A stretch of DNA of 64,000 nucleotides from positions 353,812-417,811 of the forward strand of contig CAXXRM010000005.1 in NCBI GenBank assembly GCA_963663135.2. Direction: 5' to 3'. Both the position numbers and the translations under genes were made by a program. The DNA comes from Dehalococcoidia bacterium. Its GTDB lineage: Bacteria > Chloroflexota > Dehalococcoidia > Lucifugimonadales > UBA3495. Below, piece after piece: positions 32,961 to 61,028 of the stretch. Each line of letters opens with the position of its first letter. The first letter of the stretch is position 1. A model generated the notes under the pieces. That model did not search any database. It had not been told where the DNA came from and saw only the letters and a list, made by a program, of their open reading frames with translations.

Positions 32961-33174
32961 TGGTCCACCTCTTTCATGTTTCTTGGCTGTCCCCCAGGCA
33001 TACCGACCCGCCGCAGGTTCAATGCCATCAATGCTACTTCAAATATTAGTGGCAAAGCCGTCGGTTTGTCCATGTCGCGCCCAAGGGGTATCCGGGCGCC
33101 TGCCAACGTGATGGGTGACTTTTGGCCGGGTTCCTCACCCCGACAAGCTCAACGTAAGGCTGTTCCGGGTAATG

Positions 33175-33201
33175 TTAGGGATTGAGGGCGGGTTTTACCC
33201 G
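33175..33201 (+). repeat. left copy of the 27-bp island-terminal repeat TTAGGGATTGAGGGCGGGTTTTACCCG
   Basis: It matches the reverse complement of 60657..60683 at 24/27 positions and of 40802..40828 at 24/27. It overlaps the 11-bp direct repeat TAATGTTAGGG (33170..33180 and 60681..60691). Confidence 0.7.
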
Positions 33202-33478
33202 AACCCCCGTTCGACCGCCAAAAACGCCCCAAAAAGCATGAAGGAATTTTACCCAACACCGCCCAGCGAGACCAAATCCAGACCCCCAGAACCCCAAGAA
33301 ACCGGACATCCCGGCCCACAAAACGACCCCGATCCCATCAAAATGGTGCTACAGCCTATGGGACCACGCCAGCATCCCAAAAATCCAGTCCATTCAGGCA
33401 AGAAAACCAAGCGGAAGTCGTGCTGACCTATAAGCACCCGATGGGGAGCTTACGTGATGACCCGGATGAACATCTCGG

Positions 33479-34987
33479 CTAAGGCCAGGACGGCCAAAAC
33501 TCAAGTTGAGGGGGTTGGGATATCACAGCCGCGTTGACCACCCCCTCAGACGCTTTCCCGCCGGCTCTCATTTCCCTCAGAGTCAGCCGCCGGTCACGCA
33601 TATTTCGGGCAATGAACTGCATCCGCTCCAGAACCGTCTCCGGTCGGTGATTGTGCCGCCACTTGAACTCCGTGACATACCGATGCAGGTGCTTCGAACT
33701 CGCCTGGTGATAATTCCCCATAAAACCGCGCCTGACTATTGCCCAATGGGACTCGATCCAGTTGGTCGTCACGAAATCGCGGACATACTCTCCACGAGAG
33801 TGGGCCACCGACTCATGAGCTATTCCAGGCACATTCCGATAAGCCGCATGTTCATCACTGTAGACCATTGCCCCAGACACAACTCTGGACCGGACGTAGT
33901 TTTGGACAGTAGCGCCATCAGTAGAAACGATCACCCGGGAATCCATGCGGTTGGTCCGCTCGTCCACCACTCCGATTATCGGGGTCTTGGTACCCGGACC
34001 CCGGCCAGCGTGCAACTTCTTCTTGGCATGCTTATTCCCCTCACGCCCGCCATAGTACATTTCATCGAACTGGGTGGGACCAAGAAACAACTCCATTTCT
34101 TCTTCCATGCCCCGCCGCAAGCGATGCCAGAAATGAAGAGCCATTCCATAGCAGACGCCCAGCCGGTCCGACAACATCTGGGCGGATATGCCCGTTGGCT
34201 CCTGTGATACGTCATACATGCCATCCACCCACCGCAGAAGGGAAAGGTTGGAGCTATGCATGACCGTAACGGATTTCACAGAGAAATCAGTGGAACTTGA
34301 GCCACCTCGCCGGCAGTCACGGCACCGCCACTGCCGCGGCTTGAGGTTCCTATCCACGATATCGTCCGAACCACATCTGGGGCAGCGAACGCCATCCGGC
34401 CAAAGAGTTTTTATGAACCAACGCTCAGCCGATTCCTCATCTGGAAAGTCCCTTTCATAGCGCCGCTGAGGATACCTCTTCCGTTCACGTTCAGAACGAT
34501 AATTTCCGGAATCGCCGCGTTTGCTTTCCTGCTCGGACCCAGGCTGGACCGGAGCGCGCCAGGGTCGATTCCGCAACAGTTCAGAAATAGAACGAAGCAC
34601 CTCCCCCACCTGGTCGGGGAATCGTTCCAACCGCAGGAACACGTAGTTGAGAGTTTTCCGATCGGGTATCGGTCCATCAAATCCACAGTGCTGACGAAGA
34701 GGGTCCTCGTCGGCCTCCAGGCGAGAGTGCACCCTGTTGAAAGACAGGCCTGAATCCGGATAACTGGCGATGAGGAAGGCCTTGACCATCGGGGTACGAG
34801 GGATGGTAGGGCGCCCCCGACGAGGAGCCGCGTTGGGTCCCGAGGTAAAGACGGAGAGCAATGGCTCCAGATCGACGTGATAGATGGCCGTGGCCAGATC
34901 AGAGAGACTGGAGCAAGGTTGGAGCTCCTCGGGACTACCCGAGGGTTGAAAGGTATCCGCGGTTATCGTATGATAAAGATCATCCAC
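33479..34987 (-). mobile_element. IS1595-family DDE transposase gene with an N-terminal DUF772-like extension (element ends not defined)
   Basis: Zn-ribbon CPRCGS...CRDCRR, then DEMYYGG...IIGVVDERTN...VYSDEHAAYRN...NWIESHWAIVRRG, typical of the IS1595/ISXO2-like DDE domain. GTG start at 34987. Confidence 0.75.
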
Positions 34988-35250
34988 TTTGAATCAGCAA
35001 GTTCGGGGTGGTGGTTTTGGTTCTGGGGCCGTCGCAGTTGGTGCTGTGGCGGTCCTTCTCTTTTATGAGAACATTAGCGCTATTTTACCAAAATCAGCTA
35101 TAAATCTCAATACAAAACCTGGTTTTTCCGAACCATTTCCTCCTATGAAATTGGCTTAAATCTTCGATTTTCGAAGCTTCCTGTCAGGCCTCTGCGCCGT
35201 TCCCGAAACCACCCGACCTGGCGTCGCCGGCAGCCACGAAAAGTGCTCTG

Positions 35251-35303
35251 AGTAAGAAAAAGCCCCGGCCCTTCGGAGAACGTTCGCTCCGAGTGGTCGG
35301 GGC
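35251..35303 (-). terminator. intrinsic terminator on the minus strand
   Basis: On the minus strand the GC-rich hairpin GCCCCGACCACTCGGAG-CGAACGTT-CTCCGAAGGGCCGGGGC (35262..35303) is followed by TTTTTCTT (35254..35261). Confidence 0.6.
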
Positions 35304-35736
35304 TCATCATTGCTGCTTTTGCAGGCCTTCCGGCGATACAATGTCACACCAGTGCAGAAATTGCAAGGCATAAATGGTCGGGTGTCGCGGGAAGTCTGCC
35401 GCAATTTACAGGATTCAGGGCCGGCTGACACCCTAACCTATGCCGGTGCCAGCGAATCGGACCTGCACCGCGGAGCTTCCAAGAAAAACAGGAACCGGAG
35501 ATTACAACCAGTCGAACCTGCGGCCATCCTACCCGATTCCAGGGCTATCGGGAACTCAGCCCAGGCCCATCGAACCAAGAGGGTCGGACCTCTGGCAATC
35601 CGCTTCGATCAATCGCCTAAGAGTTACTTGGCGAAATAATCCCCGATATCCATTCACCAAGTCAGGAGCACCCCAACACAGACATCATTAACCCCATGCT
35701 AAAATTCCCAGCAGGATCCCCCATGGAGCAAAAGCA

Positions 35737-37296
35737 GTGACGACCAACTTTGCCAACCGGACCCTGTACCACGGTGACAACTTGGACTTCCTACGGGGCA
35801 TGAACAGCCAGACAGTCCACCTAATTGCAACCGACCCGCCTTTCAACAAAAACAAGGACTTCCACGCCACTCCGGACAGCCTAGCATCCGGCGCCAGCTT
35901 CCAAGACCGCTGGAGTTGGCGCGACGATGTCCACGACGAATGGCTGATCGAGATTCAGCGCGACCAACCAGAGGTCTGGAGCATAGTCAAAACCACCAAA
36001 GACGTTTACGGCGATGACATGGGAGCGTACCTGGCATTCATGAGTGTCCGCCTCCTGGAAATGCACCGGGTATTGAAAGACGACGGAAGTTTATACCTCC
36101 ATTGCGATACAACCGCCAGCCACTACATCAAAGCCCTGCTCGATGCCGTTTTTGGTCCAAGAAACTACCGGAGTGAAATCACTTGGAAACGGACCAGCGC
36201 CCACAATGACACCAAGCAAGGGCGCCACCAACACGGGCGGGTCCACGATGTCTTGTTCTTCTACACAAAATCAGAGGAGTGGACTTGGAACCCCATTTAC
36301 ACTGAATACGACCCGGAATACATTAACAACTTCTACAAGTACACTGAGCCTGAAACAAGCCGAAGGTACCGTCTGGGAGATTTAACCGGACCAGGTGGCG
36401 CCTCAAAGGGAAATCCACACTACGAATTGATGGGCGTCACACGATATTGGCGACACAGCTTGGAAAGAATGAACCAATTGATGGCGGAAGGACGCATCAT
36501 TCAAACCAAACCAGGAGCAGTCCCACAATACAAACGTTACCTTGACGAAATGCAAGGAGTGCCACTCCAGGACCTTTGGACAGACATTAAACCATTGCAA
36601 TCTCAAGCGAAAGAACGCACCGGCTATCCCACTCAAAAACCTCTGACCCTGTACGAACGACTCATACTATCAAGCAGCAATCCCGGTGATATCGTGCTCG
36701 ATCCATTCTGTGGCTGCGCCTCAACCCCAGTGGCTGCCGAACACCTGGGACGACAATGGATCAGAATAGATATCTGGGACGACGCCTACCAGACCGTGCT
36801 CAACCGAATGGCCAAAGAAGGTTTGATCGTAGAACATTCCGAGGCACAACCAGGACAGCAGACGTTGACCGTTGCCAACATCCACTACGAGACCAATCCC
36901 CCGAAACGGACCGACCATGGTGAGCCGGCAGTCCTTCAACTACAAACTCCAACCGGAAAAAGAGCAATGCGGTTTCCACCCCCAAGGTCTCAGCAAGGAA
37001 GGCTGTTACTGGATGTCGGTTCATACTGCCAGGGCTGCGGACGAGATTACAGCTTTGACACACGTGTCCTGGAAGTCGACCACATAAGGCCAAAGTCAGA
37101 CGGCGGAAGCGATGCCTACGACAACCTTACCCTGCTCTGCCCGCCCTGCAACAAGGAAAAGCGGGACCGGATGACCTTGACCGGATTACAGGACTTCAAC
37201 CGCAAGACGGGACACCTTCTACCGGAGAATGAAAAGAACATTCGCCATGGACGTGGTCCACGAACAACTCCCCAAAGAAGAACCCGACGACGATAA
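35737..37296 (+). CDS. beta-class N6/N4 DNA methyltransferase fused to a C-terminal HNH endonuclease domain
   Basis: Motif IV IATDPPF near the N-terminus and the AdoMet motif VLDPFCGCAST near aa 330. At the C-terminus, CQGCG...VLEVDHIRPKSDGGSDAYDNLTLLCPPCNKEKRD is an HNH domain with a CxxC pair. GTG start 8 nt after GGAG. Confidence 0.85.
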   Translation: MTTNFANRTLYHGDNLDFLRGMNSQTVHLIATDPPFNKNKDFHATPDSLASGASFQDRWSWRDDVHDEWLIEIQRDQPEVWSIVKTTKDVYGDDMGAYLAFMSVRLLEMHRVLKDDGSLYLHCDTTASHYIKALLDAVFGPRNYRSEITWKRTSAHNDTKQGRHQHGRVHDVLFFYTKSEEWTWNPIYTEYDPEYINNFYKYTEPETSRRYRLGDLTGPGGASKGNPHYELMGVTRYWRHSLERMNQLMAEGRIIQTKPGAVPQYKRYLDEMQGVPLQDLWTDIKPLQSQAKERTGYPTQKPLTLYERLILSSSNPGDIVLDPFCGCASTPVAAEHLGRQWIRIDIWDDAYQTVLNRMAKEGLIVEHSEAQPGQQTLTVANIHYETNPPKRTDHGEPAVLQLQTPTGKRAMRFPPPRSQQGRLLLDVGSYCQGCGRDYSFDTRVLEVDHIRPKSDGGSDAYDNLTLLCPPCNKEKRDRMTLTGLQDFNRKTGHLLPENEKNIRHGRGPRTTPQRRTRRR

Positions 37297-37299
37297 GCA

Positions 37300-40053
37300 A
37301 TGAAGCAGCTTGACCAAAACCGGACCGAAAAGATGGCCGAAGAGCCAATCCGCCCCAGTGAAAATCCGCTCCTGGTCTTCATCAGCAGCACGCAGGACGA
37401 GGAATTGTCCTGCGCCAGAACTTTGGCCATCGACACGGTGGACAACTACCCAGGCATGAGGGTCTGGGCCTTTGAGGACGCCCCTGCCAGTTCCGAACGG
37501 GCCCGCGACCGATATATCAGAAACGCGGGTAGGGCTGACCTCGTGATCTGGCTCATTGGTTCAACTACCACCACTCCAATAGTTGAGGAAATCAGTGCCT
37601 GCATGAGGGCCCAAGGAAACCTTCTGGCTTTCAAACTCCCCGCGAGGAACAGAGACAATGAAACAGAGACCCTCATCAGAAGAGTGTCGGACTACGCCAC
37701 CTGGAAGACTGTGGAGAAAGTAGAAGATCTGCCGGCCCACATCAAGGCAGCCCTGACTGACGAGATGTTGAGGAGGTACCGGGACCCAGCCCCGGCCAAC
37801 CACGACCTATTCCTGAAGCAGAAACACCGAGAGAGCGTCGCGGAAACCAAGCGTCTCTGGACCACGCTGGGAGTGCCGGACGAGATCGCGGGTGACCTCG
37901 CTGGTGACCACTCGATCGGACACAAACTGCAGTTCCCTTCGTCGGGAACACTGACAGTAACCGCCCAACAAGGTTCTGGAAAAACACTGGCAGCACAGCG
38001 GTTGTACCAACAGGCGCTCGTGGACCGACTGCAGGACCACCTCCAACCTTTCCCAATCTTCCTGAACGCACGGAACATCAATGGAGACTTGAAGGACCAG
38101 ATAGAGAGAGACACTCGTGAACACGGAACCGTATACACCCAAAGGATTTTGGTTATCATCGACGCCCTAGACGAAACAGGTCGGCACAAGGGCAACGAGA
38201 TAATAGACCAAGTGCAGTCGTACACGGATGCGAACCAAGACGTGGCGGCTATAGTCATGGCCAGACCCCTGCCGGGACTAAAGTTCGATCCGAACTCCAC
38301 AACCCTTCCCGAATGCAGCGATGAAGAGTTCCTCTCCCTGGCATCAACGATGGCCGGTCGACCGGTCGACTACTTTGAGGTCCCTCACCGAATATCCTCT
38401 TCCAAGATCCCTCTCTTCGCAGTGATAGCAGGATTACACCTAAGGAATTGTGAAAACTTCACAAGATCTACACCCAGTCAGATGGTTAGCCTGCTGATCC
38501 AGAGGATTTTGGCAGAATCAGAAGATTATCCAGAGGAAACAGCCGAACTGCTGAAAAAATTGGCTGTCGCGACCATCACCTCAGGAGAGCCTGTACCTAA
38601 ATCAACAGTGGACCGAAGGCCGGCAGTGCAAGCCCACGTGGCCAATTCACGTCTGGTAGTTGAACAGGACGACAACTTTGACTTCGCAATCGCCTTGTTC
38701 AGAGAATGGTTCGCCGCCAGGGCACTCGTGGAAAGGACGGTCTCAGCATCCGAGATTGACCCAAAATCTGACAGATGGGTAGTCCCTCTGGCCATCGCCA
38801 TAAACGCGGAAGATGAAGGTCTTGGCCCGGAGATCATGGCAACCCTCTCAGTCAAGGATCCGATCCTAGCTACGTTGGTTTTAGGGGAAGTGAAACACAA
38901 TTGGTCAACGGGGGACGCTGAGGAAACCACACCATCTGGCTCGACCATAGAAATAGGACAACGCATTCGGGAAGCCATGACCAACTGGAAGGAAGGACTC
39001 GGGCCGCTGATGGCGGCCATAGGACCAACTTCACGCGAAGGAACCATCCCTCCACTTCTTGTCGGCAAAGGACCTCGACTGATCACCACAAGCTGGTATC
39101 AAGGTGAATCGCAGATGGATCCGGTAGTGGAAATGCGCGAGGTCGTGAATCACTCATTCGCTCCGACAGGAGAGGACTGGCCCGCTTGGCGCAGCACGGA
39201 AATAGAACCCACGAGAGTCTGGCAGTGGGCAACTACCAAAGATGAGTTATCCCAATCGCTTTCCAAAGAACTGAAGGGCTACAGGTTTGCGCTAGACTCG
39301 ACACAAGGAATCCATGAACTCACAGCAGAATTTGTAAAAACAATACCCAAGGCATTGTTGTCGACAGCGGACCCGCCAAAGATAGACGAACTAATCGGTC
39401 TAATCAATCAATGGACCACCAAACCGGGAGGCAGCCTTGATGACGTTGTTTTCCTCGGTCCCCATGGATATACGGTCAACCATCTGAGACTGGCTCATAC
39501 GATGCTCTCACACCTTCGAAGCGCCGGATATCAGACTATATCGGATCCTTGGCCTGGCCCGGATAAACCAACACCCACAGGTGTGCCCCAAATATGGTGG
39601 GATGAAATCTATACGCATCAGCAATTGTTAGCTCGTGCCACAGCAATATTCGATGGAGCCCTGAGAATTTACAACGACATTGTGGACCGATGGTTTACAA
39701 CCTTCGACAAGAGACACCAGATGAGTTACAAGCTTCCTGTAAGGATCCAAGGAGTATTGGTTCCAGGGGGCAATCCCAAAAGACCTGATTGGCACAGGGT
39801 GAGTCTCATGTGGTGGCCTCGGCTAGCTAATGCTGACAGCGAATCTGGAGTATTCTTTGAACTAGGAACTTGGGACCAGATTAGTGGCCAGACTGCAAAG
39901 GACCAGATGGAAAGGTCACAACAGGAATACCTTGAAGAAAGGGGAAGGTTTACCTTTTCGACTCAGATCTTCTACGGAAACGAGCAGGCACCAGCGACCA
40001 AGAGGGCGCATGACTGGTTGACGTCAGACCTTCAAAATCTAGGATGGTTATAA
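37300..40053 (+). CDS. DUF4062-like N-terminal domain + NACHT/STAND-type P-loop NTPase + ~600-aa uncharacterised C-terminal region
   Basis: The ATG lies 3 nt after the MTase-HNH stop. The N-terminus LLVFISSTQDEEL...ADLVIWLIGS matches the DUF4062 pattern. Walker A is QQGSGKT (~37972) and the NACHT-like Walker B is ILVIIDALDE (~38146). Confidence 0.7.
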   Translation: MKQLDQNRTEKMAEEPIRPSENPLLVFISSTQDEELSCARTLAIDTVDNYPGMRVWAFEDAPASSERARDRYIRNAGRADLVIWLIGSTTTTPIVEEISACMRAQGNLLAFKLPARNRDNETETLIRRVSDYATWKTVEKVEDLPAHIKAALTDEMLRRYRDPAPANHDLFLKQKHRESVAETKRLWTTLGVPDEIAGDLAGDHSIGHKLQFPSSGTLTVTAQQGSGKTLAAQRLYQQALVDRLQDHLQPFPIFLNARNINGDLKDQIERDTREHGTVYTQRILVIIDALDETGRHKGNEIIDQVQSYTDANQDVAAIVMARPLPGLKFDPNSTTLPECSDEEFLSLASTMAGRPVDYFEVPHRISSSKIPLFAVIAGLHLRNCENFTRSTPSQMVSLLIQRILAESEDYPEETAELLKKLAVATITSGEPVPKSTVDRRPAVQAHVANSRLVVEQDDNFDFAIALFREWFAARALVERTVSASEIDPKSDRWVVPLAIAINAEDEGLGPEIMATLSVKDPILATLVLGEVKHNWSTGDAEETTPSGSTIEIGQRIREAMTNWKEGLGPLMAAIGPTSREGTIPPLLVGKGPRLITTSWYQGESQMDPVVEMREVVNHSFAPTGEDWPAWRSTEIEPTRVWQWATTKDELSQSLSKELKGYRFALDSTQGIHELTAEFVKTIPKALLSTADPPKIDELIGLINQWTTKPGGSLDDVVFLGPHGYTVNHLRLAHTMLSHLRSAGYQTISDPWPGPDKPTPTGVPQIWWDEIYTHQQLLARATAIFDGALRIYNDIVDRWFTTFDKRHQMSYKLPVRIQGVLVPGGNPKRPDWHRVSLMWWPRLANADSESGVFFELGTWDQISGQTAKDQMERSQQEYLEERGRFTFSTQIFYGNEQAPATKRAHDWLTSDLQNLGWL

Positions 40054-45518: not shown

Positions 45519-45522
45519 CGAG

Positions 45523-52009: not shown

Positions 52010-52140
52010 GTTTTCTCCTCAGGCTTTATTTTCCAACTTTGTATTGGCCTGGCTTTGTGCTCCAGTGTGGGGTTTGCTTTTAGCCCTGTTGGTTCTCGTA
52101 CCTGAATATCTTTGGTTGCCTTGAGTTTCACTGATTGGCT

Positions 52141-53917
52141 CTAGAAATCCGGCCGGAAACCCCTTGTTGGGAAGAGGAATTTAGTCAGTAAGGCCGCCGC
52201 GAGCAAAGTGAGGGCCCAAATTTGCCCGAGCCACGCGGCACCGCAATTGGCGGCGGAGTTGACCATGCCAGCGGCCAGGGAGCTGCCGGCGCTGGGACCG
52301 GAGCCGGTTTCTCCCGTCAACCCGGCTTTGGCGGCCACCAGGGTCAGGTTGGCCACCGTGGCGGCCAGGTACAACTGGAACCTGGTTTTGATGCGGCCGA
52401 AGTAGCGGGACTGGCGGATTCCGAGTTGGACCAGCCGCGCCAGCCGGTGCTCCACCACTACCCTCCGTTGCCGATACCCAGCAAAACCCTCGCTGTGCTG
52501 GAGGGCGCGGGCCTGCTGCAATAAAGCTTCCTGCGGGTGCAGCCGGACCGTCCGCCCCGTACCCGGTTTTGCCGCCAGGCACTGGGACCGCAGCGGGCAC
52601 GCTCCACAGACCGCCGCGTCGAATCGGAAGGCCTCCAAACGGTAAGGTCGACCCATTTGGTCGGTGCGCCGCCCTGCAGGAACTATCGTCCGGGTAACCT
52701 GCCCCGCTGGACAGGTGCAGGAACCCGCCTCCAGGTCAATCCGAAAGGTCTTCCTTCGGAAAGTGAGACCGGTTGGGGCGGCCCGGCACTCGGGCAATCA
52801 GGGTGCGTCCCGCATCGGCGAAGGCCTGTCTGGTATTGCCGTCGCCATAAGCGGCATCGCCCATGATCTCTGCCGCCGTCACGCCGGTGTTGGCCTCACT
52901 CTGTTCCACCAGTTCCAGCACCCCCAGGTTGTCCGGAGCGTTGCCGGGCAATACCTCCACGGCGGTAATCAGCTGGGTGCCGGTGTCCACCACAATCGCC
53001 GCCTTGTGTCCGTCGAACCGCCGGCTGCTGCTCTTGTGCCCGTGGCGCATCTCCGGGTCGTGCACCGACATCATCCGGTCCCGGCTCACCCCATCCTTGA
53101 GGCTCACTCTGTCATCAGTCCGCTCCACGTCCTGGAGCAGCAACTGCCCCAGCAGTTCCGCCGCGTCCACAATCCGTTGGCGCTCGGAGCGGTCCTCGGG
53201 CAGTTCCCCCTGCGCCTGCCGCGATAATTCCAACAACCGGTCCGCGTCAGCCACAATCCCAGCCAACAGCGCCGCCCGCGCCTGCCGGTTGGACCAGTCG
53301 ATGGCCGCTTCGCCCTTGACGCTGGAGCCCAGGTATCGATGGTATCCCCGGGCCTTGGCCCACTCTCTATCGGTGGTCTTCGCCACGGCTGCCAGCGCCC
53401 GCAGCAGTTTGACGATCCCGTCCGCCAACAGATTGTATGTATCCTTCACCGCGCCCCGGCCCAGGATATTGGTCGTGTCCAGCGCCACCTTCATGCCGCG
53501 CCTTTTCAGGTAGCCCGACTCCCGGGCCAGCCGCAGGCTGCCCTCGAACACCTCCCGCACCTTGTCGTGCAGGATCAGCTGGGCGCGGAATACCTGCAGC
53601 GTGCTCTTGGCGAAGGGCCGGTCCTCCACCTCAATCCCCAGGGCTACTTTCCAGCGGAGGTCAAAGTCGGCCCGAGCCTTGGCCTCGGAATCGCTCACCT
53701 TGTCGTGGGACTGGAGCAGCAGCGCCGTCGCCAGCAGGCTGGGCGGCACGCTGTCCCGGCCGTTGTCGGGGCAGTAGAATTCGGCGAACTCGGCGTCTCG
53801 GAACAGCCGGCCCCGCAGCGACGCGAGGAGACCATAGAAGCTTTCCCGCCCCACGTGATCCAGATACAGCCGGTCCGCTTCCCAAAGTCCCCTCTGGTCC
53901 GAACGCTCTCCCAACAT
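52141..53917 (-). pseudogene. IS1182-like transposase split into two ORFs by a 1-nt frameshift near 52747
   Basis: ORF 52736..53917 ends ...HFPKEDLSD*. ORF 52141..52797 contains ...FRIDLEAGSCTCPAGQ. Removing one C/G at ~52747-52748 gives a continuous HFPKEDFRIDLEAGSCTCPAG. Confidence 0.7.
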
Positions 53918-53995
53918 TCTCCGCCCTCGCTACACTTGTTGACCCCGAGTATAGCCGCTTACCCGCCCACAGCCACTTTCCGGCCGGATTTCTAG
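52141..53995 (-). mobile_element. IS1182-like (IS5-superfamily) insertion sequence with perfect 19-bp terminal inverted repeats
   Basis: CTAGAAATCCGGCCGGAAA (52141..52159) is the exact reverse complement of 53977..53995. The internal transposase has a DUF772-like N-terminus and a C-terminal ...CPAGQ...CGACPLRSQC motif. Confidence 0.85.
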
Positions 53996-54227
53996 GGCCA
54001 GTTCGCCGGAGCCCGGCACAGCAATGCCTGCATACCCGGCGAGTGGAGGGAACTAATCTGGCAGAAAGAGCTGATCGTCAGGCTGGCTGACGGGCTCTGG
54101 GAAGCCGCGGGGTAACCTGAGTTTCCCACATGGGATATCCCGGTGGAATAACCGATGGAGACGGTTGACAATCCAGTCCCCCGTGGACACCATGAGCCCC
54201 ACTCGCAGGTAAGAACAGGGGACCGAA

Positions 54228-54896
54228 TTGGTAGATTTACAGGACGGCTATGCGGTGATCGACCTCGAGATGGCCGGAGCGGACCCCCACACCGGCCTCA
54301 TCATCGAGATGGCGGTCGGGGTGTCTCACCCAGGGCAGAACCTGATCACTGACCGGGTCCTGGTTAAGATAGACCAGTTCATCCCCAAGAACATCGCCCG
54401 GTTGACCGGGATTACCGACAGGGACCTGACCTCGGGCGGGATTTCCATCGACGATGCCCTGGGCTGGTTCGTGGAGCGGACTTCCGGCCTCCCCTTGGTC
54501 GGGCACAACGTCCTTCAATCGGACCGGGCCTACCTGCTGGAGGCCGCCCGCCGGCACCGCCAGGCCGCCAACGAGGGCCTGTATCCCAAATTGGTCATCG
54601 ACGAGATGCTTAACCTGCCGGTCCAACGGTTCATAGATACCCTGGGGCTTTACAAGGGTTACCTCCTGGGTGAGTACCCTCAGGCTGGGGAAAGCCACGA
54701 GGACTACGCCCTGAGGGTGATCTCCCGGGACGCCTACGGGCTTCGCACCGGCCTGACCGCGGCCTGCGAAGATCTGGGCATTCCCGTTTCCCGAATCCGG
54801 GCGCATCGGGCCACTGGGGATGTGTTACGGAACCAAATGTTGTTCGAGAAACTCCTGGAGTTGAACCCACCCGAATCACTCGCCCGAGGGTCATGA
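54228..54896 (+). CDS. DEDDh 3'-5' exonuclease (DnaQ/epsilon-like)
   Basis: Exo I YAVIDLEMAG, Exo II LVGHNVLQSDRAYL, Exo III AHRATGDV. The start is ambiguous (TTG 54228 or ATG 54250). Confidence 0.8.
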   Translation: MVDLQDGYAVIDLEMAGADPHTGLIIEMAVGVSHPGQNLITDRVLVKIDQFIPKNIARLTGITDRDLTSGGISIDDALGWFVERTSGLPLVGHNVLQSDRAYLLEAARRHRQAANEGLYPKLVIDEMLNLPVQRFIDTLGLYKGYLLGEYPQAGESHEDYALRVISRDAYGLRTGLTAACEDLGIPVSRIRAHRATGDVLRNQMLFEKLLELNPPESLARGS

Positions 54897-54938
54897 GCTG
54901 TCAGAAGACCCACCTGCAGCTACTTCCCATCCTGGTTC

Positions 54939-54977
54939 TGAGGTGGACCCGGATATTTGGACAGAATTAAGTGAGAG
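54939..54977 (+). repeat. solo IS3-type terminal repeat TGAGGTGGACCCGGATATTTGGACAGAATTAAGTGAGAG
   Basis: It closely matches 40280..40329 (TGAGGTGGACCCCATTAGTTGGACAGGATTTAGGTGGAATTAAGCGAGAG). Confidence 0.5.
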
Positions 54978-55202
54978 ACTTGGCACTCCAACAAATGATG
55001 CTGACCTTTCGCACCGAACATATCCGTAAGCCGCGAACCAAGCTCAGGTAGTCGGCCCCAACATGACGCAATCAGAACGATTCCCAGACACTTTCAGCCT
55101 TAGGCCGACCTGGAAGACCTCACCACCCCAAAACACAGAGCCTGCTACCCCACCTCAAAGACCGGGAGAACTTAAGGAAGTCTCGATTTAACAAGAGGCC
55201 TC

Positions 55203-56089
55203 ATGGAATTCGCAGACCTGAATGAAATCAACCTCCGCACCGCATGGCCGGACGAAGCCCACGACTTCACCCCCTGGCTATCCCAGAACCTGAACCGCCT
55301 CTCCCAGGCCATTGGAATACCAATGGAACTCGAGGACACGGAAGTAGCCGTCCAAGAGTTCTCGGCCGACATTCTAGCCAGGAATCCCACCGACAACACT
55401 CTCATTCTGATCGAGAACCAGCTGGAGCCGACCGACCACACGCACCTTGGTCAGATCTTAACCTACCTCGCAGGGCTCAATGCTCAGACCATAATCTGGA
55501 TAGCCCGGAACTTCCGGGAACCTCACCTCTCCGCGGTCCGTTGGCTGAACACCCACACCTCAGACCCATTTGGTTCTTCGCAGTCCAGGTCAAGGTAGTG
55601 CGAATCGGAAACGACCAGGCCTCCCCCGTATCCCCGATCTTCGAGGTCCTGGAGAAGCCAAACGAATGGGACCGGAAGATCGCCGACACGAAAGATGGGG
55701 CACTGAACGAACTCCAGCGGTTCCGACACGACTTCTGGCAGTCATACGCCCAACAATACCCGGAAGATATCCAACTCAACCCCAACTTCATCGACAGCAA
55801 CGTCTACCACAGGATGAACGGGCTGTTCGTCTCCCAGTACCTGGCCCAAGGGGAGGTTGGAGTCTACCTTCAAAAAGAAAACCGCCGGTACACGGACGAA
55901 GACCGAGAGCGCATTCAGACACACGAGGTAAAACTCAACGAACAAGGGATTACCGCCGGGCCAAACTCCCAACACGTCGGCACCAACCTCTCAATAAATA
56001 CCCGAGACCAAGCAAACTGGTCCCAGATGAGGGAATGGCTGCACGATACGCTAAGAAGATTCCGGGAGATACTTGAGAAAGAAACCTAA
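55203..56089 (+). pseudogene. PD-(D/E)xK-like N-terminal domain + DUF4268-like C-terminal domain protein, frameshifted near 55560..55575
   Basis: Frame 1 gives ...FSADILARNPTDNTLILIENQLEPTDHTHLGQILTYLAG...RWLNTHTSDP. Frame 2 continues WFFAVQVKVVRIGNDQASPVSPIFEVLEKPNEWDRK... to 56089. Together they form one colinear protein of a family I recall as DUF4268-containing nuclease-like proteins. Confidence 0.6.
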
Positions 56090-56431
56090 TCCGAAGAAAG
56101 CTTGAACGCCCGGGCATGTGTGCGGGCCCAGGGTGAGAAATGCGAAGTTCCCCCCGTTCCCCAGGAGTTCACCAGCCATGTTGCCTAGAATACGCCGGGA
56201 AATGAAAGTTCGAAAAGCGCACTCGAATGAGTAGTGCAATCCTCTTCTCTTCCCTGACAGAGATTGATCGACGCCCGAGCCGGAAATCACCTAAAATGAC
56301 GAGGCAGCGAGAGAACCGCTCTAGCTTGGGCCCCCGACGGCGATGGCCGCTCAAACTGTGGGGAGAATGAGCGGCCCCTTTTGGGAAACAACCCCAAGGG
56401 CCCATCGACCAACCCGCCACAATAAACCTGC

Positions 56432-57079
56432 ATGGCGACCAAACCTCGGGATAACACCATTTCAATCGGGTCGAAGACCATGGTCAACTTCAACCGCATC
56501 CAACACCACATAACCCAGAGATACGAGTCTACGAGACTCTGCGACGGACAACCTGCCGGCGAAGCAGATATCTCCGCGATCAACCTGGAAGCACTCAGAG
56601 AGGCCAGATACCAGGCCACCCTGTGCCCAAGCTGCCAGCAAAATCTGGGACAGCAATCGGTCACCCTAAGAGTCCCCCGTTACCGGAATAACGACCAGAC
56701 CCTCGCCCACCTATACACTGTGCCCGTCCAATACGACTTCGACGACATCCGCAATTGTCCCCACTGCCTGGAGAATCCTGGGGAAAGAAACTGCGGGGCG
56801 TGGGAGAACGCGAGAGAGGGTGTCAAGGTCCTACACCAGGAGGCCAGACGAATCGCCAGGAACGTCGAGGAAATGGCCGACGCAACTGGTAGCAAACCGG
56901 CAAATCTCTACGAGTTCGTGGACGGCACCGTGGCCTACTTCGCCTTAGATGCCCCGCCGTGGCAGGAGGCCGAAGACTTGGTTGGGACAGACCTGGAGAG
57001 GGCCAGAAGGATCCTTGACGAGAGAGCAACCCCGGGCGGCAAGGCAGGTTGGCCGCAAACCCAACCGGCCAGCCCCTGA
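56432..57079 (+). CDS. hypothetical Cys-motif protein
   Basis: 215 aa with CPSCQQ and CPHCLENPGERNC. I did not recognise a family. Confidence 0.4.
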   Translation: MATKPRDNTISIGSKTMVNFNRIQHHITQRYESTRLCDGQPAGEADISAINLEALREARYQATLCPSCQQNLGQQSVTLRVPRYRNNDQTLAHLYTVPVQYDFDDIRNCPHCLENPGERNCGAWENAREGVKVLHQEARRIARNVEEMADATGSKPANLYEFVDGTVAYFALDAPPWQEAEDLVGTDLERARRILDERATPGGKAGWPQTQPASP

Positions 57080-57142
57080 ACCCGAGATGTGCTTCTCAAC
57101 CATGACACCCCTTCGAATCCCCGCCGGCATAGCTGAACTCGA

Positions 57143-57820
57143 TTGAGCCCAAACGATATCTTCAAACTACTGAGCACCGACCGGTTCGGCGCTTACGCCA
57201 TGTCTGCGGACCAGGTCATCCTGTTCTGGAACTCGGGGGCCCAGCGAATTCTCGGGCACTGGAGCAATGACGTCCTGGGGCGCCGGTGCTACGAAGTCCT
57301 ATCGGGGCTGGCTCTCGGAGGATTTACCCCGGGGCGCTTGGATGGGTGTCCGTCTATCTGTGATTTCCGGGCAGGTCTGGCGCCTACCCCAATCCAACTC
57401 CGCACGCTCTGCGCGTCGGGCCAACGGAAGCTTGTGGCTCTGACTACCATGGTGGTTGCTGGTGTCCTGGAAGATGGCCCTCTTCTGGCGCACCTGTTCC
57501 ACGACGCCACGGACGAAAATGAGTCGGCGGTAGTCGCCAGCGCAGTGCAGGATACGCTGCGGGAAAACGGCGCCCCCACCCTGCAGGGCCTAGGCGTGGC
57601 ACCTCCAATGGAGAATCCCCGGGAGTTGACCCTGCGGGAACTGGAGGTGTTGCGCCTGGTCTCGCTGGGCTGGAGAACCCCGAGAATTGCGGATGAGTTG
57701 GGCCTCAGCTATCACACGGTTCGGAATCATATCCGTCACTGCCGCGGGAAGCTGGGTGCGGCCACCAAGCTGGACGCGGTGCTCACAGCCATGCGCCGTG
57801 GGATTTTGCCCGTTGTCTGA
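57143..57820 (+). CDS. PAS-domain LuxR-family transcriptional regulator
   Basis: A PAS-like N-terminus (ADQVILFWNSGAQRILG) and a C-terminal LuxR HTH (LTLRELEVLRLVSLGWRTPRIADELGLSYHTVRNHI). The start is uncertain (TTG 57143 or ATG ~57199). Confidence 0.75.
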   Translation: MSPNDIFKLLSTDRFGAYAMSADQVILFWNSGAQRILGHWSNDVLGRRCYEVLSGLALGGFTPGRLDGCPSICDFRAGLAPTPIQLRTLCASGQRKLVALTTMVVAGVLEDGPLLAHLFHDATDENESAVVASAVQDTLRENGAPTLQGLGVAPPMENPRELTLRELEVLRLVSLGWRTPRIADELGLSYHTVRNHIRHCRGKLGAATKLDAVLTAMRRGILPVV

Positions 57821-58862
57821 TTTACGCCAAAACGCGGGACAAGCCGGGCGCTACTCCTTCCGGACCATGCCATGGTGCTGGTCAGGCTCACATGGAAGGT
57901 GGCACAACCATCGAGGGCTGGTCAGATCGTCGTATTGATACTCGGAGTAACCGTCGGAGCAATATTTGCCGCGGCGTCCTACTCAGGTGGCGGAGAGGAG
58001 GCCTACAGTTAATGACCCGGGACGAAATTGCAGAGATAAAGCGAAAATCTGAAGAACAGGCAAGTTGGGGTTTTATTAGTCGCTACGGACGCACCGGGCG
58101 CATCACGTCTTTGCAAAACCGCAGCGAGGGCCAGACATTAGAGCCAGACATTAGAGATAGATACCCCCGACGGTTCGCTAACCGCTAAGGTGGGGGAAAA
58201 CACCAATATTCATAAGACAACGAACAATGAATCACGATCCCTGACTTTTGAAGACCTTACCGCTGGCATGCTAATCACAGTGGACGGCGAGACAGGCACA
58301 AGAGAGAACGCTGAAGCTGGCCACATTCGAATAATCCCAGAAGGAGAAGGAGGATTCGATATACAACCAGGTTCGAGTTCTGGTCCTCGTATGATGCCAG
58401 TGCTACCGTAGCATCCTGGGGGCGAAGAAGCCTATGGACTAATCCTGGAACGAACACCCGTCCGAAAAGTAAGCATGGTCGCGGATTTTAGAAGCAATGG
58501 CTTTTGGGGGGTGAGGTTGGATTTTACCCGAACTCCGGTTATCCCCAGATCGGCCTCCAAAGACCATGCTGAATATCTACAGGACCCAGGCAATAACAAA
58601 GAGCAATTGCAAGGTCTGAAACGAGTCGATTGACCACGTGTGGGCAACACTGTCGAAATTCAGTGCCGCTCCTGGATCACAGACTCTATTTCGGCGGAAC
58701 ATTTCCCGGAGCATTTCCCGGAGCATTCACCCTGAGTTTCCATATTTTCCCCAGACCTGCACACGAAGGTGAAATCCTCCTACGGTCCCCTACAAATCAT
58801 GGCTTGGCTTTTTGCCGAGCCAGAGCTTCGCACACCCGAATTAAGGTCTTGAAGTAGCAACA

Positions 58863-59864
58863 GTGCTCAAAATCCCCCACAAACCTTTTCCGAGAATCTT
58901 CGCCATTGGGCTGATTCTTCTGGTCATACTCCAGGCCTGCGGCAGCGCCGATGCACCGGGGGACATATTGTGTTCTGACCGAGTCACAACCAGCTCAACG
59001 GCTCAATCGGAGTCAGCCATGGACACGCCAGCGACCACGCCGCCGGCTGTACCGAACACTCCGACAACGGAAGAGGCCAGGCCCAAGTCTGCATTTGCAA
59101 ACACCTCGCGCGAAACAGACCGGGAAGTGCTGGTCACCCTCTACAATGCCACGGACGGCCCGAACTGGAGCAACAACCATAACTGGCTAAGCGACGCGTC
59201 ACTCCGCCAATGGAGTGGCGTAACCACTGACAGAATCGAAGGCCGCGTCACTGAATTGGAACTCGCTAGGAATGAGTTGCGCGGTGAGATACCGGCGGAG
59301 TTGGGCAACCTCGCCAACTTCGAAAGTTTGAACCTCGGCAGGAATAAGTTGCGCGGTGAGATACCAGCGGAGTTGGGCAACCTCGCCAACCTGCGGACGC
59401 TGTGCCTCTACAAAAACCAGTTGCGCGGTGAGATACCGGCGGAGTTGGGCAACCTCGCCAATTTGACATGGCTGAACCTCTTCGAGAACCAGTTGCGCGG
59501 TGAGATACCAGCGGAGTTGGGCAACCTCGCCAATTTGACATGGCTGAACCTCTTCGAGAACCAGTTAAACGGTGAGATTCCGGCGGAGTTAAGCAAACTC
59601 GTCAACCTGGAAGCGCTGAACCTTGGCTTAAACCAGTTGAGCGGGGAGATACCGGCAGAGTTGGGCAACCTCGCCAACCTGAACGTGCTAAACCTACAAG
59701 AGAACCAATTGAGCGGGGAGGTGCCGGCGGGGTTGGGCAATCTCACCTACCTGCAGAAGCTGAGCCTCGACGGAAACCAGCTCATCGGGTGTGTACCAAG
59801 CAGTTTGCAAGGCCAGTTAGACATTGGCGTTTCACACCTTGGCGGCCTGACGTTCTGTCCCTGA
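58863..59864 (+). CDS. lipoprotein with plant-type (24-residue) leucine-rich repeats
   Basis: Lipobox ILQACGS. An N-cap-like segment LVTLYNATDGPNWSNNHNWLSDASLRQWSGV. About 7.5 repeats of N.L.GEIPAELGNLANL..L.L. Confidence 0.85.
   Translation: MLKIPHKPFPRIFAIGLILLVILQACGSADAPGDILCSDRVTTSSTAQSESAMDTPATTPPAVPNTPTTEEARPKSAFANTSRETDREVLVTLYNATDGPNWSNNHNWLSDASLRQWSGVTTDRIEGRVTELELARNELRGEIPAELGNLANFESLNLGRNKLRGEIPAELGNLANLRTLCLYKNQLRGEIPAELGNLANLTWLNLFENQLRGEIPAELGNLANLTWLNLFENQLNGEIPAELSKLVNLEALNLGLNQLSGEIPAELGNLANLNVLNLQENQLSGEVPAGLGNLTYLQKLSLDGNQLIGCVPSSLQGQLDIGVSHLGGLTFCP
59271..59807 (+). repeat. 72-bp tandem repeat array encoding the LRR units
   Basis: Unit starts at 59271, 59343, 59415, 59487, 59559, 59631, 59703 and 59775. 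Units 59415..59486 and 59487..59558 differ at 1 of 72 nt. Confidence 0.9.
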
Positions 59865-60656
59865 GGCCGGGCGCCCCCTGTCCTCAACCGGGGCACATCG
59901 CTCTGGAGTGCACCCGGCGCGCGGTGGCACTCCAAGTTCTCTGCGCTCTCCGTATCGTAACTCCAGTTGATTTTGGGAAGAATTGACCCCGGATTCCAGT
60001 AAGCCTTTCCCGAATTTTCACAGTCGTCAGTTTATAAGTCCAGACCAACGCCACTCTAAACCGGCGACAGGTATCCATATCCAACAAGTGGGTCAATTCT
60101 AAGTCGACGGTCAAGACAACAAGCCCATGGTGGGTCAAGTCCCCATCGGCGGAAACTGGTCAAAAGTTCTTCGGCGTTGACACGGAACGCTGGCATAAGC
60201 ATGTGACTACTAGCCCAACAAATCGAGGACTATCACGTTAACCCGGCCCACCGTCCTGCCCCCGACGACGGCGGCGGACCCAAGCTTCAGCCCCACCCGG
60301 AAGAGGGCAACCAATACCGAATCTCCGAGACCTGTGAGCACCTGGAGGAAGAGTCATACGACATCAGGGGCAGCGTACACCATGTTGTGGGTGCCGAGGA
60401 CCTGAGCGAAGTTCTCGACAAAATGCCCGCGATTTCCAGGATGTCCATCGAGAATTACATCGGCGACGGAGTGCACATCACCTTAGAGATTCGAAGATCA
60501 ACTTAGGCCCCCGGGTTACTCAGAACCAATAAACCCGGCCCGCCGCCCTGTCCTAGGCCCGGCGGCGGGCCCAAGCTTCAGCCGCCCAAAATATGGGAAT
60601 AATTCCGCCCGGAGTCCCGCCAACACCTCCGAATTTATTCCCACTATTCACGCCTC

Positions 60657-60683
60657 CGGGTAAAATCAACCCTCAATCCCTAA
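60657..60683 (-). repeat. right copy of the 27-bp island-terminal repeat
   Basis: The reverse complement TTAGGGATTGAGGGTTGATTTTACCCG matches 33175..33201 at 24/27 positions. It is followed by the 11-bp direct repeat TAATGTTAGGG (60681..60691). Confidence 0.7.
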
Positions 60684-60695
60684 TGTTAGGGGCGC

Positions 60696-61028
60696 TTACC
60701 CGGGCAGGGAATGGCATTCGTGAACTTCAATCTCGCAACCGGGCACCCCTATGTGTGGATAATTCTGCAACAGGGCTTTCGCGGCGTCCATGTCGTCCGC
60801 CTGCAAAACCGAATACCCCAATACACCCTTATCGCTTGGCGCGCTTCCGGATTCCGAAATCTTCAATCCGCCGCTGAGGGGCGTGCCCCTGTCGATGAGA
60901 GCCTCTCCGCATGAGTCGGCCCAAGCCATCCACTTCTTCATGCCCTCCTGCATTTCCTCAGGGGAGGAAGCGGCCATCGACTCCATATATGCAGGAGTGC
61001 TGTAGTAGATCACGAAAAACCTTCCCAT
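60696..61028 (-). CDS. YCII-related small alpha+beta protein
   Basis: 110 aa whose overall pattern (FFVIYY...EEMQEGMKKWMAW...GYSVLQADDMDAAKALL...) resembles YciI/DGPF-type proteins. Confidence 0.5.
   Translation of the reverse strand: MGRFFVIYYSTPAYMESMAASSPEEMQEGMKKWMAWADSCGEALIDRGTPLSGGLKISESGSAPSDKGVLGYSVLQADDMDAAKALLQNYPHIGVPGCEIEVHECHSLPG

What the first reader, a model, noticed from the sequence alone, without database searches (positions are those of the whole stretch)
33165..60703. 27.5-kb accessory island bracketed by an 11-bp direct repeat and 27-bp inverted repeats, inserted into a terminator-like hairpin
Seen in sequence: TAATGTTAGGG occurs at 33170-33180 and again at 60681-60691. 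Just inside are inverted copies of a 27-mer: TTAGGGATTGAGGGCGGGTTTTACCCG (33175-33201) and the reverse complement of 60657-60683 (TTAGGGATTGAGGGTTGATTTTACCCG), 24/27 identical. Removing the interval gives CCGGGTAA-TGTTAGGGGCGC-TTACCCGG, an 8-bp-stem hairpin. This hairpin includes the stop codon (60696-60698) of the YCII-like gene and lies upstream of the amidohydrolase gene 31797-32960, so it is a plausible native terminator. All IS elements, all defence-like genes and the lower-GC DNA lie inside the interval. A third copy of the 27-mer (40802-40828, same orientation as the right end) plus ~190 bp of adjoining homology (40635-40828 versus 60528-60683) makes 33175-40828 an IR-bracketed subunit. 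I cannot assign the 27-mer to a known IS or transposon family.
Basis: partly seen in the sequence, partly recalled or inferred. Interest (0 to 1): 0.7.

Follow-up and report, generated by a model that had tools for sequence, protein, structure and literature searches.

The report
Defence-carrying IS1595-type compound transposon
The 27.5-kb island is a large transposon of the IS1595 family, built from two related units that flank a block of anti-phage defence genes; it inserted just after a gene's stop codon and is absent from that exact spot in close relatives.

Summary
The island is 33178-60680 (27,503 bp). It ends in 24-nt inverted repeats that start GGGATTGAGGG and is flanked by an 8-bp target duplication, TAATGTTA. 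The 27-mer is the 24-nt repeat plus 3 duplication bases.

The gene beside the left end encodes an IS1595/ISXO2 DDE transposase. It is an unusual 502-aa form with a DUF772-like N-terminal domain.

There are four end copies, which define three segments:
- Unit A (33178-40825) is autonomous: transposase, methylase-HNH, NACHT-like NTPase.
- Unit B (58507-60680) has no transposase and carries an LRR gene.
- A 17.7-kb middle holds DSR2-like, DGQHR and PDC-S11 genes plus three other IS elements.

Only the outermost ends carry the duplication, which fits movement as one compound transposon.

Five relatives' contigs (three distinct haplotypes; amidohydrolase 99% or 88% identical) have the predicted empty site, gap-free. 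A transposase 501/502 identical sits elsewhere with the same end, a different flank and type I restriction-modification cargo.

The terminator reading is not supported. This is a new variant of a known kind, the IS1595 transporter IS or compound transposon. It is solid but only moderately surprising.

The parts
33170..33177 (.). Left copy of the 8-bp target-site duplication, TAATGTTA
   Evidence: Identical to 60681-60688. Relatives have a single copy, CAATGTTA in L008 and L009. The two L008 flank alignments overlap by 10 nt on the empty site.
33178..33201 (+). Transposase-proximal terminal inverted repeat P1, GGGATTGAGGGCGGGTTTTACCCG
   Evidence: The same repeat lies about 280 bp after the stop of homologous transposase genes in L002 and L004. 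In L003 it lies about 1.6 kb after the stop, behind an inserted IS630-like element. Each locus has a different A/T-rich flank.
33202..33478 (-). Conserved sub-terminal region between the transposase stop and P1, including a second ATTTTACCC at 33249-33257
   Evidence: Identity over the proximal end is 98% to L002, 84% to L004 and 78% to L003. The GGAATTTTACCCA sub-terminal motif is also present in the distant relative L021.
33479..34987 (-). IS1595/ISXO2-family DDE transposase, long form (502 aa): DUF772-like N-terminal domain, Zn ribbon, DDE core, and a C-terminal extension of about 30 aa
   Evidence: PF12762 1.1e-31 and PF12760 1.8e-9. NF033547 scores 142.8 bits against a cut-off of 75. Full-length homologues of 488-511 aa exist. 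D308, D378 and E412 are invariant. DUF772 hits 15 of 21 long homologues. It is 501/502 identical to P0001; the one difference is T282M at a conserved G-T/S/A-A-x-H position.
34988..35470 (-). Conserved non-coding region upstream of the transposase gene, with a promoter-like site (35110-35082) and a terminator-like hairpin (35278-35263)
   Evidence: Mean column identity is 86% across the window, L002, L003 and L004, with indels that are not multiples of three. The promoter-like site is TTGAGA-17-TAAAAT, 10 of 12.
35737..37296 (+). Cargo of unit A: N6/N4 DNA methyltransferase fused to an HNH nuclease (519 aa)
   Evidence: PF01555 1.4e-40 and PF01844 5.5e-14. PADLOC MTase_II 2.7e-59. Homology to L002 stops 257 nt into this gene, at 35993.
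37300..40053 (+). Cargo of unit A: NACHT-like STAND NTPase with a DUF4062 N-terminus (917 aa)
   Evidence: Weak NACHT hit at 2.5e-5 and DUF4062 at 5.9e-4. A 56%-identical homologue lies next to a distal-type end in L014.
40635..40801 (+). Distal sub-terminal module of unit A, with two conserved stem-loops
   Evidence: Homologous to 60528-60656, to L007 and to the start of L004. Consensus hairpins.
40802..40825 (-). Distal terminal inverted repeat D1 of unit A (21 of 24 to P1). Its outer flank, TAATCGAA, is not a duplicate of TAATGTTA.
40826..58506 (.). 17.7-kb central segment. Contents: split DSR2-like gene (SIR2 part 44406-45518, C-terminal part 41632-44406, minus strand); IS21 (46852-49142); N-truncated IS110 transposase (49344-50189); DGQHR/DndB-like gene (50876-52009); IS1182-like element (52136-54000); DEDDh exonuclease (54228-54896); PDC-S11-like gene (55244-56089); PAS/GerE regulator (57143-57820)
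   Evidence: Pfam, PADLOC and NCBIfam hits. IS1182-like inverted repeats.
58507..58530 (+). Degenerate proximal-type inverted repeat P2 (19 of 24), the start of transposase-less unit B
   Evidence: It shares the proximal-type continuation TTTTACCCGAAC..GTT with P1 (family D5).
58863..59864 (+). Cargo of unit B: leucine-rich-repeat protein (333 aa) encoded by 72-bp tandem repeats
   Evidence: LRR families. Seven copies with 72-nt spacing at 59198-59845.
60528..60656 (+). Distal sub-terminal module of unit B, with the same two stem-loops as unit A
60657..60680 (-). Distal terminal inverted repeat D2', the right end of the whole 27,503-bp element (21 of 24 to P1)
60681..60688 (.). Right copy of the 8-bp target-site duplication, TAATGTTA
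60696..61028 (-). Host YCII-like gene. Its stop codon lies 8 nt from the insertion point.
   Evidence: PF03795 at 5.3e-4. It sits directly upstream of the amidohydrolase gene in relatives L008-L013.
31797..32960 (-). Host Amidohydro_2 gene. About 210 bp of its upstream intergenic DNA stays attached to it.

Best explanation
The interval 33178-60680 is a 27.5-kb compound transposon of the IS1595 family.

Structure:
- Unit A (7,648 bp) is an autonomous transporter IS. It encodes a 502-aa DDE transposase with a DUF772-like domain, a Zn ribbon and the IS1595 catalytic core. A divergently oriented defence cargo (methylase-HNH and a NACHT-like NTPase) lies between a proximal and a distal 24-nt inverted repeat.
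- Unit B (2,174 bp) is a related cargo unit with no transposase. It has a degenerate proximal end and an intact distal end.
- Between them lie 17.7 kb of defence genes and unrelated IS elements.

Proposed mechanism: the transposase paired the outermost ends (P1 and D2') and inserted the whole block into an A/T-rich 8-mer, TAATGTTA, 8 nt after the stop codon of a YCII-like gene. Staggered cuts 8 bp apart and repair produced the duplication. The defence cargo probably favours retention of the element.

Shown here: the ends, the duplication, the family of the transposase, the precise empty site in relatives, and an almost identical transposase and end at another site with a different cargo.

Inferred: catalysis by this protein, use of the outer ends in a single event, and any fitness benefit.
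For: 1. The adjacent gene is an IS1595 transposase. Both curated models are above their cut-offs and the DDE residues are invariant.
2. The same end, starting GGGATTGAGGG, follows homologous transposase genes in L002, L003 and L004. Each has a different A/T-rich flank. More distant relatives have ends that start GGGA in the same place.
3. An identical 8-mer flanks only the outermost ends. The outer flanks of D1 and P2 are unrelated. Chance identity of two given 8-mers is about 1.5e-5.
4. An 8-bp A/T-rich duplication is the published family hallmark, and IS1595-family pseudo-compound transposons are known (PMC12561309).
5. Relatives L008 and L009 (amidohydrolase 99% identical) and L010-L013 (88% identical) have the YCII-like and amidohydrolase genes adjacent. 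Five of them (L008-L011, L013) were aligned and match the window minus 33178-60688 without a gap. The two L008 flank alignments overlap by 10 nt.
6. A transposase 501/502 identical, with 99.3% DNA identity over 2.8 kb, lies in another sample beside type I restriction-modification cargo and a different flank. That sample also contains the empty site.
7. Order and orientation of the ends are P(+), D(-), P(+), D(-). This is two tandem units, not a nested insertion.
8. No tRNA gene, no Rfam match and no site-specific recombinase gene among the ORFs scanned.
Against: - No second copy of the whole 27.5-kb block was found elsewhere, so movement as one unit rests on the duplication alone.
- Units A and B are diverged. 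Their distal modules are 79% identical and their inverted repeats match at 21 of 24, so they are not twin copies as in textbook compound transposons.
- P2 is degenerate (19 of 24).
- The window's transposase carries T282M at a conserved position and may be impaired.
- I could not confirm an 8-bp duplication for a second family member. The end pairs in L015, L016 and L021 had no matching flanks.
- ISfinder could not be searched, so the subgroup is unassigned.
- The sequence comes from a metagenome assembly.
Confidence: 0.82

Rival explanations
1. Growth in place. A smaller IS1595-type element with ends P1 and D2' inserted at this site and made the duplication. The internal ends D1 and P2, the defence genes and the IS21, IS110 and IS1182 elements arrived later, by nested insertions and recombination inside it. 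On this reading the 27.5 kb never moved as one piece.
For: The middle holds three unrelated IS elements, and the IS110 and IS1182-like copies are truncated or frameshifted, which shows later traffic. Nested arrangements occur in this family: in L014 one element interrupts a gene next to another distal-type end. The outer flank of D1, TAATCGAA, shares TAAT with the duplication. Cargo is exchanged by recombination, as the breakpoint at 35993 against L002 shows.
Against: The order P(+), D(-), P(+), D(-) is what two tandem units give. A nested insertion would give P, P, D, D or inverted ends. No relative carries an intermediate; only empty sites were seen. The shared TAAT fits an apparent TAA..TTA target preference seen at other copies.
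Confidence: 0.13
2. An integrase-type genomic island. The 11-bp direct repeat is the att core of a site-specific recombination, and the inverted repeats are recombinase arm sites.
For: An 11-bp direct repeat brackets the island.
Against: No tyrosine or serine recombinase domain in any ORF scanned. No tRNA or tmRNA gene. Other copies of the same end have unrelated flanks, so there is no common core. Three of the 11 bases are explained by the inverted repeat starting GGG next to a native GGG.
Confidence: 0.02
3. A chance repeat, a generic intergenic repeat, or a chimeric metagenome assembly joined at repeats.
For: The source is a metagenome-assembled contig. A few unrelated GGGATTGAGGG...TTTTACCC matches exist in cyanobacterial and other metagenome contigs.
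Against: Four copies against 0.01 expected in the window. Only 3 hits in one genome from each of 185,579 species. Both flanks are colinear with several independent assemblies of relatives and overlap exactly by the duplicated target. The internal repeats are too diverged (79%) to cause collapse.
Confidence: 0.03

Closest known systems
IS1595-family transporter IS (tIS) with passenger genes, such as ISNha5 (Siguier, Gagnevin and Chandler 2009, as cited in PMC11891212)
   Same: IS1595/ISXO2 DDE transposase with a Zn ribbon, short terminal inverted repeats, an 8-bp duplication, and passenger genes inside the ends. Unit A (7.6 kb) is within the size range I recall for ISNha5-type elements; that range is from memory and was not checked here.
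   Different: The transposase has an extra DUF772-like N-terminal domain of about 175 aa and a C-terminal extension of about 30 aa. No plasmid record covers 80% or more of it. Only short forms were found in viral contigs. Only 24 of 1.84 billion cluster representatives match the N-terminal 180 aa. The cargo is anti-phage defence (restriction-modification systems, STAND NTPase) rather than the regulators cited for ISNha5. There is a conserved distal module of about 190 bp with two hairpins.
IS1595-family (IS1016 subgroup) pseudo-compound transposon Tn7560 formed by ISApl4 (PMC12561309)
   Same: Two IS1595-family units flank the cargo. The target duplications are 8 bp and A/T-rich. The units forming the compound element lack duplications of their own.
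   Different: Tn7560 is 5.8 kb with two 712-bp IS copies and resistance genes. Here the flanking units are 7.6 and 2.2 kb, diverged, themselves cargo-bearing, and only one encodes a transposase. The total is 27.5 kb and carries defence genes.
Tn7-like transposons with defence cargo (PMC8649781)
   Same: A transposon acting as a vehicle for diverse, swappable defence systems.
   Different: The transposition machinery is unrelated: a single DDE protein here against TnsABC plus a targeting protein. The duplication is 8 bp, not 5 bp. There is no att-site targeting.

Membership tests
IS1595 family (insertion sequence or transporter IS) | DDE transposase that matches the family's catalytic-domain models | tested here: met
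   PF12762 scores 110 bits against a cut-off of 27. NF033547 scores 142.8 bits against a cut-off of 75. D308, D378 and E412 are invariant in 25 homologues.
IS1595 family (insertion sequence or transporter IS) | Zn-ribbon DNA-binding motif N-terminal to the catalytic core | tested here: met
   PF12760 scores 37.8 bits against a cut-off of 25.4, at residues 182-227. The cysteines are invariant.
IS1595 family (insertion sequence or transporter IS) | Short terminal inverted repeats at both ends | tested here: met
   24-nt repeats, 21 of 24 identical. The proximal copy is conserved next to homologous transposase genes in L002-L004.
IS1595 family (insertion sequence or transporter IS) | 8-bp, usually A/T-rich, target-site duplication | tested here: met
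   TAATGTTA on both sides, with a single copy at the relatives' empty site. Family property from PMC12561309.
IS1595 family (insertion sequence or transporter IS) | Compact element that encodes only transposition functions (a plain IS) | tested here: not met
   Unit A is 7.6 kb with two cargo genes and the whole element is 27.5 kb. It is therefore a tIS or transposon of the family, not a simple IS.
IS1595 family (insertion sequence or transporter IS) | Assignment to a named ISfinder subgroup (ISPna2, ISH4, IS1016, ISSod11, ISNwi1, ISNha5, IS1595) | not testable with these tools
   ISfinder is not available. The long transposase form has no full-length match in 72,556 plasmids or in IMG/VR.
Compound (composite) transposon | Two related IS-derived units bracket a central segment | tested here: met
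   Unit A is 33178-40825 and unit B is 58507-60680. They lie in direct orientation and each has a proximal-type and a distal-type end.
Compound (composite) transposon | Target duplication at the outermost ends only | tested here: met
   The outer flanks are TAATGTTA and TAATGTTA. The inner flanks are TAATCGAA and GGCTTTTG.
Compound (composite) transposon | The whole block is seen to move, at a second site or in an assay | tested here: inconclusive
   Empty sites were found, but no second copy of the 27.5-kb block. An exact look-up of a central protein found nothing.
Integrase-type genomic island | Tyrosine or serine site-specific recombinase gene, usually with a tRNA or tmRNA target | tested here: not met
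   No recombinase domain in the ORFs scanned. No tRNA or tmRNA gene in the window.
Intrinsic (Rho-independent) terminator at the target | Stable GC-rich hairpin followed by a U tract, conserved among relatives | tested here: not met
   z = -0.9. There is no U tract. The stem differs in L008 and L010. The terminator scan found 0 sites in 60000-61200.

The most novel reading that the evidence does not exclude
The long-transposase elements (DUF772-like domain, Zn ribbon, IS1595 DDE core) form a distinct and so far undescribed clade of transposons specialised as defence-system shuttles in uncultured bacteria. On this reading they build defence islands by serial accretion. Autonomous units, transposase-less cargo units and relics that share the conserved distal module and the GAGGTGGACCC-N7-TGGACAG motif pile up in one orientation. 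Any outer pair of ends can then move the whole stack.
Probability: 0.25. Interest if true: 0.6.

Novelty: new variant of a known kind. Interest (0 to 1): 0.4.

Why it matters
The result turns an anonymous accessory island into a defined mobile element with exact ends, a duplication, an empty site and a named transposase family. It also shows that a single-protein IS1595-type system can carry defence cargo. Each element I sampled carries restriction-modification genes or other defence genes. The largest case is this 27.5-kb multi-system island.

Defence systems on Tn7-like and other large transposons are well documented. The same behaviour in an IS-like family with a one-gene machinery would be useful for delimiting defence islands in metagenome genomes. 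It would also help explain how whole islands move between strains. The rare extra N-terminal DNA-binding domain of the transposase is a concrete handle for experiments. It remains an extension of known biology rather than a new principle.

Tried and rejected
- Generic-repeat idea rejected. The end pattern gave 3 hits in the species-representative genomes, none near a transposase gene. It gave 4 unrelated hits in JGI metagenomes and 0 in viral contigs.
- Integrase or att island rejected: no recombinase domain and no tRNA gene.
- Terminator reading rejected.
- Rfam gave no match in the window.
- I looked for a second family member with both ends and a duplication and failed. L015 has a perfect 25-nt inverted-repeat pair with unmatched flanks. 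The distal ends in L016 and L021 are uncertain. In L002, L004 and L014 the element runs off the contig or locus end.
- Exact look-ups of the window's transposase and of the DSR2-like C-terminal protein found no record.
- The GAGGTGGACCC-N7-TGGACAG motif gave no convincing RNA structure and no consistent promoter spacing. I found no split copy flanking the IS110 remnant.
- Host taxonomy stayed unresolved. The best named relatives of two core proteins are only about 58-65% identical (Chloroflexota MAGs and Candidatus Entotheonella).

Full report
**Observation**

- TAATGTTAGGG is at 33170-33180 and 60681-60691.
- The 27-mer is at 33175-33201. Its inverted partner at 60657-60683 matches at 24 of 27 positions.
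- A third copy is at 40802-40828, with adjoining homology: 91 nt at 79% without gaps, plus a shared GC-rich hairpin.
- A pattern search with up to 3 mismatches finds four copies where 0.01 are expected. The fourth copy, new here, is degenerate, lies at 58507-58530 and has the orientation of the left end.

**What the ends are**

The ORF 277 bp inside the left end (33479-34987, minus strand) is an IS1595/ISXO2-family DDE transposase with the family's Zn ribbon.
- Pfam: PF12762 at 1.1e-31 and PF12760 at 1.8e-9.
- NCBIfam: NF033547 at 142.8 bits against a cut-off of 75.
- The whole 502-aa frame is conserved. Homologues at 99.8%, 85%, 83% and 82% identity have the same length, and a further set at 39-53% identity are about 490-510 aa.
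- Ordinary IS1595 transposases of about 310 aa align only to residues of about 180-475.
- The extra N-terminal 175 aa or so is DUF772-like. It hits PF05598 in 15 of 21 long homologues, best E-value 2.9e-7, and 0.018 for the window protein. There is also a C-terminal extension of about 30 aa.
- D308, D378 and E412 are invariant.

I fetched the contigs that encode the closest homologues.
- The sequence GGGATTGAGGGCGG(G/A)TTTTACCCG follows the transposase stop by about 280 bp in L002 and L004. In L003 it follows at about 1.6 kb, behind an inserted IS630-like element.
- The flank differs each time..ttatattg..taatttag..aagaattt, against ..taatgtta in the window.
- More distant long-form loci have ends in the same place that also begin GGGA. 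These are GGGATAGTGGGAGAATTTTACC in L015, GGGAACGTG.. in L014, GGGAATGTAG.. in L016 and GGGATTGTAGCGG.. in L021.

The terminal repeat therefore begins at 33178 and ends at 60680. It is 24 nt long. The bases immediately outside are TAATGTTA on both sides. The 27-mer is the 24-nt repeat plus TTA/TAA from the ends of the duplication. An A/T-rich 8-bp duplication is the published signature of IS1595-family elements (PMC12561309).

**Empty site**

A homology search with the flanking amidohydrolase, followed by context look-ups, found close relatives.
- L008 is a 3.9-Mb circular contig and L009 comes from another sample. Their amidohydrolase is 99% identical to the window's.
- L010-L013 have an amidohydrolase 88% identical.
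- In all of them the YCII-like gene lies directly upstream of the amidohydrolase gene.
- I aligned five of them (L008-L011 and L013). Each aligns without a gap to the window with 33178-60688 removed. Each has one copy of the target, CAATGTTA in L008 and L009.
- By megablast the two flanks of L008 (95.6% and 97.4% identity) end at window positions 33180 and 60682 and overlap by 10 nt on the empty site. This is the classic signature of a target duplication.

**Evidence of activity and cargo exchange**

- L002 comes from sample ERZ21829562, which also contains the empty-site contig L009. It is 99.3% identical to the window from 33172 to 35993. That span covers the end, a transposase 501/502 identical, the upstream non-coding region and the first 257 nt of the methylase-HNH gene.
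- Beyond that point L002 carries a different cargo, type I HsdM and HsdS with other genes, and it has a different outer flank.
- L004 (83% transposase identity) carries an N6/N4 methylase, a HARE-HTH gene and a ResIII helicase. It ends, at the contig edge, in the same distal module.
- L014 and L021/L022 carry ResIII plus methylase cargo. L016 carries type I HsdM, HsdS, Abi_C and HsdR.
- In six of the eight distinct elements I sampled (the window's, L002, L004, L014, L016 and L021/L022), defence genes, mostly restriction-modification, lie divergently upstream of the transposase gene. L003 and L015 are the exceptions.

**Architecture of the island**

The four ends lie in the order P1(+) 33178, D1(-) 40825, P2(+) 58507 and D2'(-) 60680. 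P1 and P2 share the proximal-type continuation TTTTACCCGAAC.... D1 and D2' share a distal module of about 190 bp, which is also present in L004 and L007. That module has two conserved stem-loops.

This is two tandem units in direct orientation.
- Unit A is 7,648 bp: transposase, methylase-HNH and a NACHT-like NTPase.
- Unit B is 2,174 bp: an LRR gene and no transposase.
- Between them lie 17,681 bp. They hold a split DSR2-like gene, a DGQHR/DndB-like gene, a DEDDh exonuclease, a PDC-S11-like gene and a PAS/GerE regulator. They also hold IS21, IS110 and IS1182-like elements.

The outer flanks of D1 (TAATCGAA) and P2 (GGCTTTTG) are not duplications. Only the outermost pair is flanked by one.

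The simplest reading is that the last event paired P1 with D2' and moved all 27,503 bp as a compound transposon. Pseudo-compound transposons are documented in this family (Tn7560, PMC12561309). The alternative is growth in place inside an older P1-D2' element. I cannot exclude it and rate it at about 0.13.

**Target hairpin**

Several points argue against a terminator.
- Its energy, -14.4 kcal/mol, is ordinary for the composition (z = -0.9).
- No U tract follows it.
- The scan for terminator-like sites finds none in 60000-61200.
- The closest relatives fold differently at this position.

I therefore read the site as an A/T-rich 8-mer in an otherwise GC-rich spacer, 8 nt after the YCII-like stop codon. 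About 210 bp of the amidohydrolase upstream region remains attached to that gene.

**Comparison with what is known**

Transporter IS with passenger genes were defined on the IS1595 family (Siguier et al. 2009, cited in PMC11891212). The tested family criteria are met: transposase models, Zn ribbon, inverted repeats and the 8-bp duplication. The exceptions are that the element is far larger than a plain IS, and that its ISfinder subgroup could not be tested.

What differs from described members, as far as I could check, is the transposase architecture.
- No record among 72,556 plasmids covers 80% or more of the protein. Only the core matches, at about 31% identity.
- IMG/VR holds only short forms.
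- The N-terminal 180 aa match only 24 of 1.84 billion cluster representatives.
- A literature search for ISXO2 together with DUF772 found nothing relevant.

The defence cargo and the conserved distal module are further differences. I rate the finding a new variant of a known kind. A hit in ISfinder would lower this.

**Caveats**

- The sequence comes from a metagenome assembly (ERZ28669063).
- The host lineage is unresolved.
- The window's transposase has T282M at a conserved position.
- No second example of a duplication in the clade was obtained.

Noticed in passing
window 40281-40305, 45524-45548, 49270-49294, 54940-54964 (+), weak copy 41313-41337 (-); L006 3333-3357 (-): A conserved motif, GAGGTGGACCC-N7-TGGACAG, with a tail of about 60 bp (..GGAATTAAGCGAGAG..). 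The window search gave five matches, four on the plus strand and one weak match on the minus strand, all inside the island, against 0.09 expected. Most copies lie 44-230 bp downstream of a gene on the same strand. One more copy lies about 570 bp from the end-repeat hit in a Dehalococcoidia MAG. I found no RNA structure and no fixed promoter spacing. Its function is unexplained.
   Followed up: partly
window 34988-35470 (-): About 400-480 bp of non-coding DNA upstream of the transposase gene is at least as conserved as the gene itself across elements at 83-99% identity. It contains a near-consensus promoter-like site (35110-35082) and a terminator-like hairpin (35278-35263). It could encode a small regulatory RNA or leader.
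   Followed up: partly
window 41632-45518 (-): The DSR2-like defence gene is split into a SIR2 part (370 aa, 44406-45518) and a C-terminal part (924 aa, 41632-44406) that overlap at 44406. It could be a natural split or a frameshift.
   Followed up: no
window 55074-55136 and L004 229-291: A 63-bp stretch is 86% identical between the island's middle (just after the motif copy at 54940) and the distal interior of the L004 element. It could be a relic of another family member inside the island.
   Followed up: no
window 3400-6600: A second low-GC patch (GC 0.556) lies outside the island. It holds a PIN-domain gene (3456-3863, minus strand) and a 720-aa ORF with no Pfam match (4366-6528, minus strand).
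   Followed up: partly
L014 11802-11823, 11811-12173, 15556-18270, 18883-18904: In a relative with 52-53% transposase identity, the element appears to have inserted into a gene whose remaining C-terminus looks to me like that of a type IIG methylase (read by eye from the sequence, not checked with a tool). Downstream lie a PLD-SNF2 helicase and a NACHT-like protein 56% identical to the window's. A distal-type end with the palindromic module follows. This looks like a nested arrangement in another defence island.
   Followed up: partly
window 57143-57820; L015 7979-8608; L016 12903-13763: PAS/GerE (LuxR-type) regulators 37-60% identical to the window's recur in or beside related elements. The orientation is not consistent. 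Regulators are the passenger type cited for ISNha5.
   Followed up: partly
window 59198-59845: The LRR gene of unit B is built from seven 72-bp (24-aa) tandem repeats at 62-100% identity to the reference copy.
   Followed up: no
window 49344-50189 and 52136-54000: The IS110-family transposase lacks about 35 N-terminal residues. The IS1182-like element has 24-nt inverted repeats at 96% identity, but its transposase is split into two ORFs and I saw no obvious duplication. Both look decayed.
   Followed up: partly
window 60240-60292 against 60536-60588: The GC-rich hairpin sequence of the distal module is duplicated about 290 bp further inside unit B. The 24-nt core is 96% identical.
   Followed up: no
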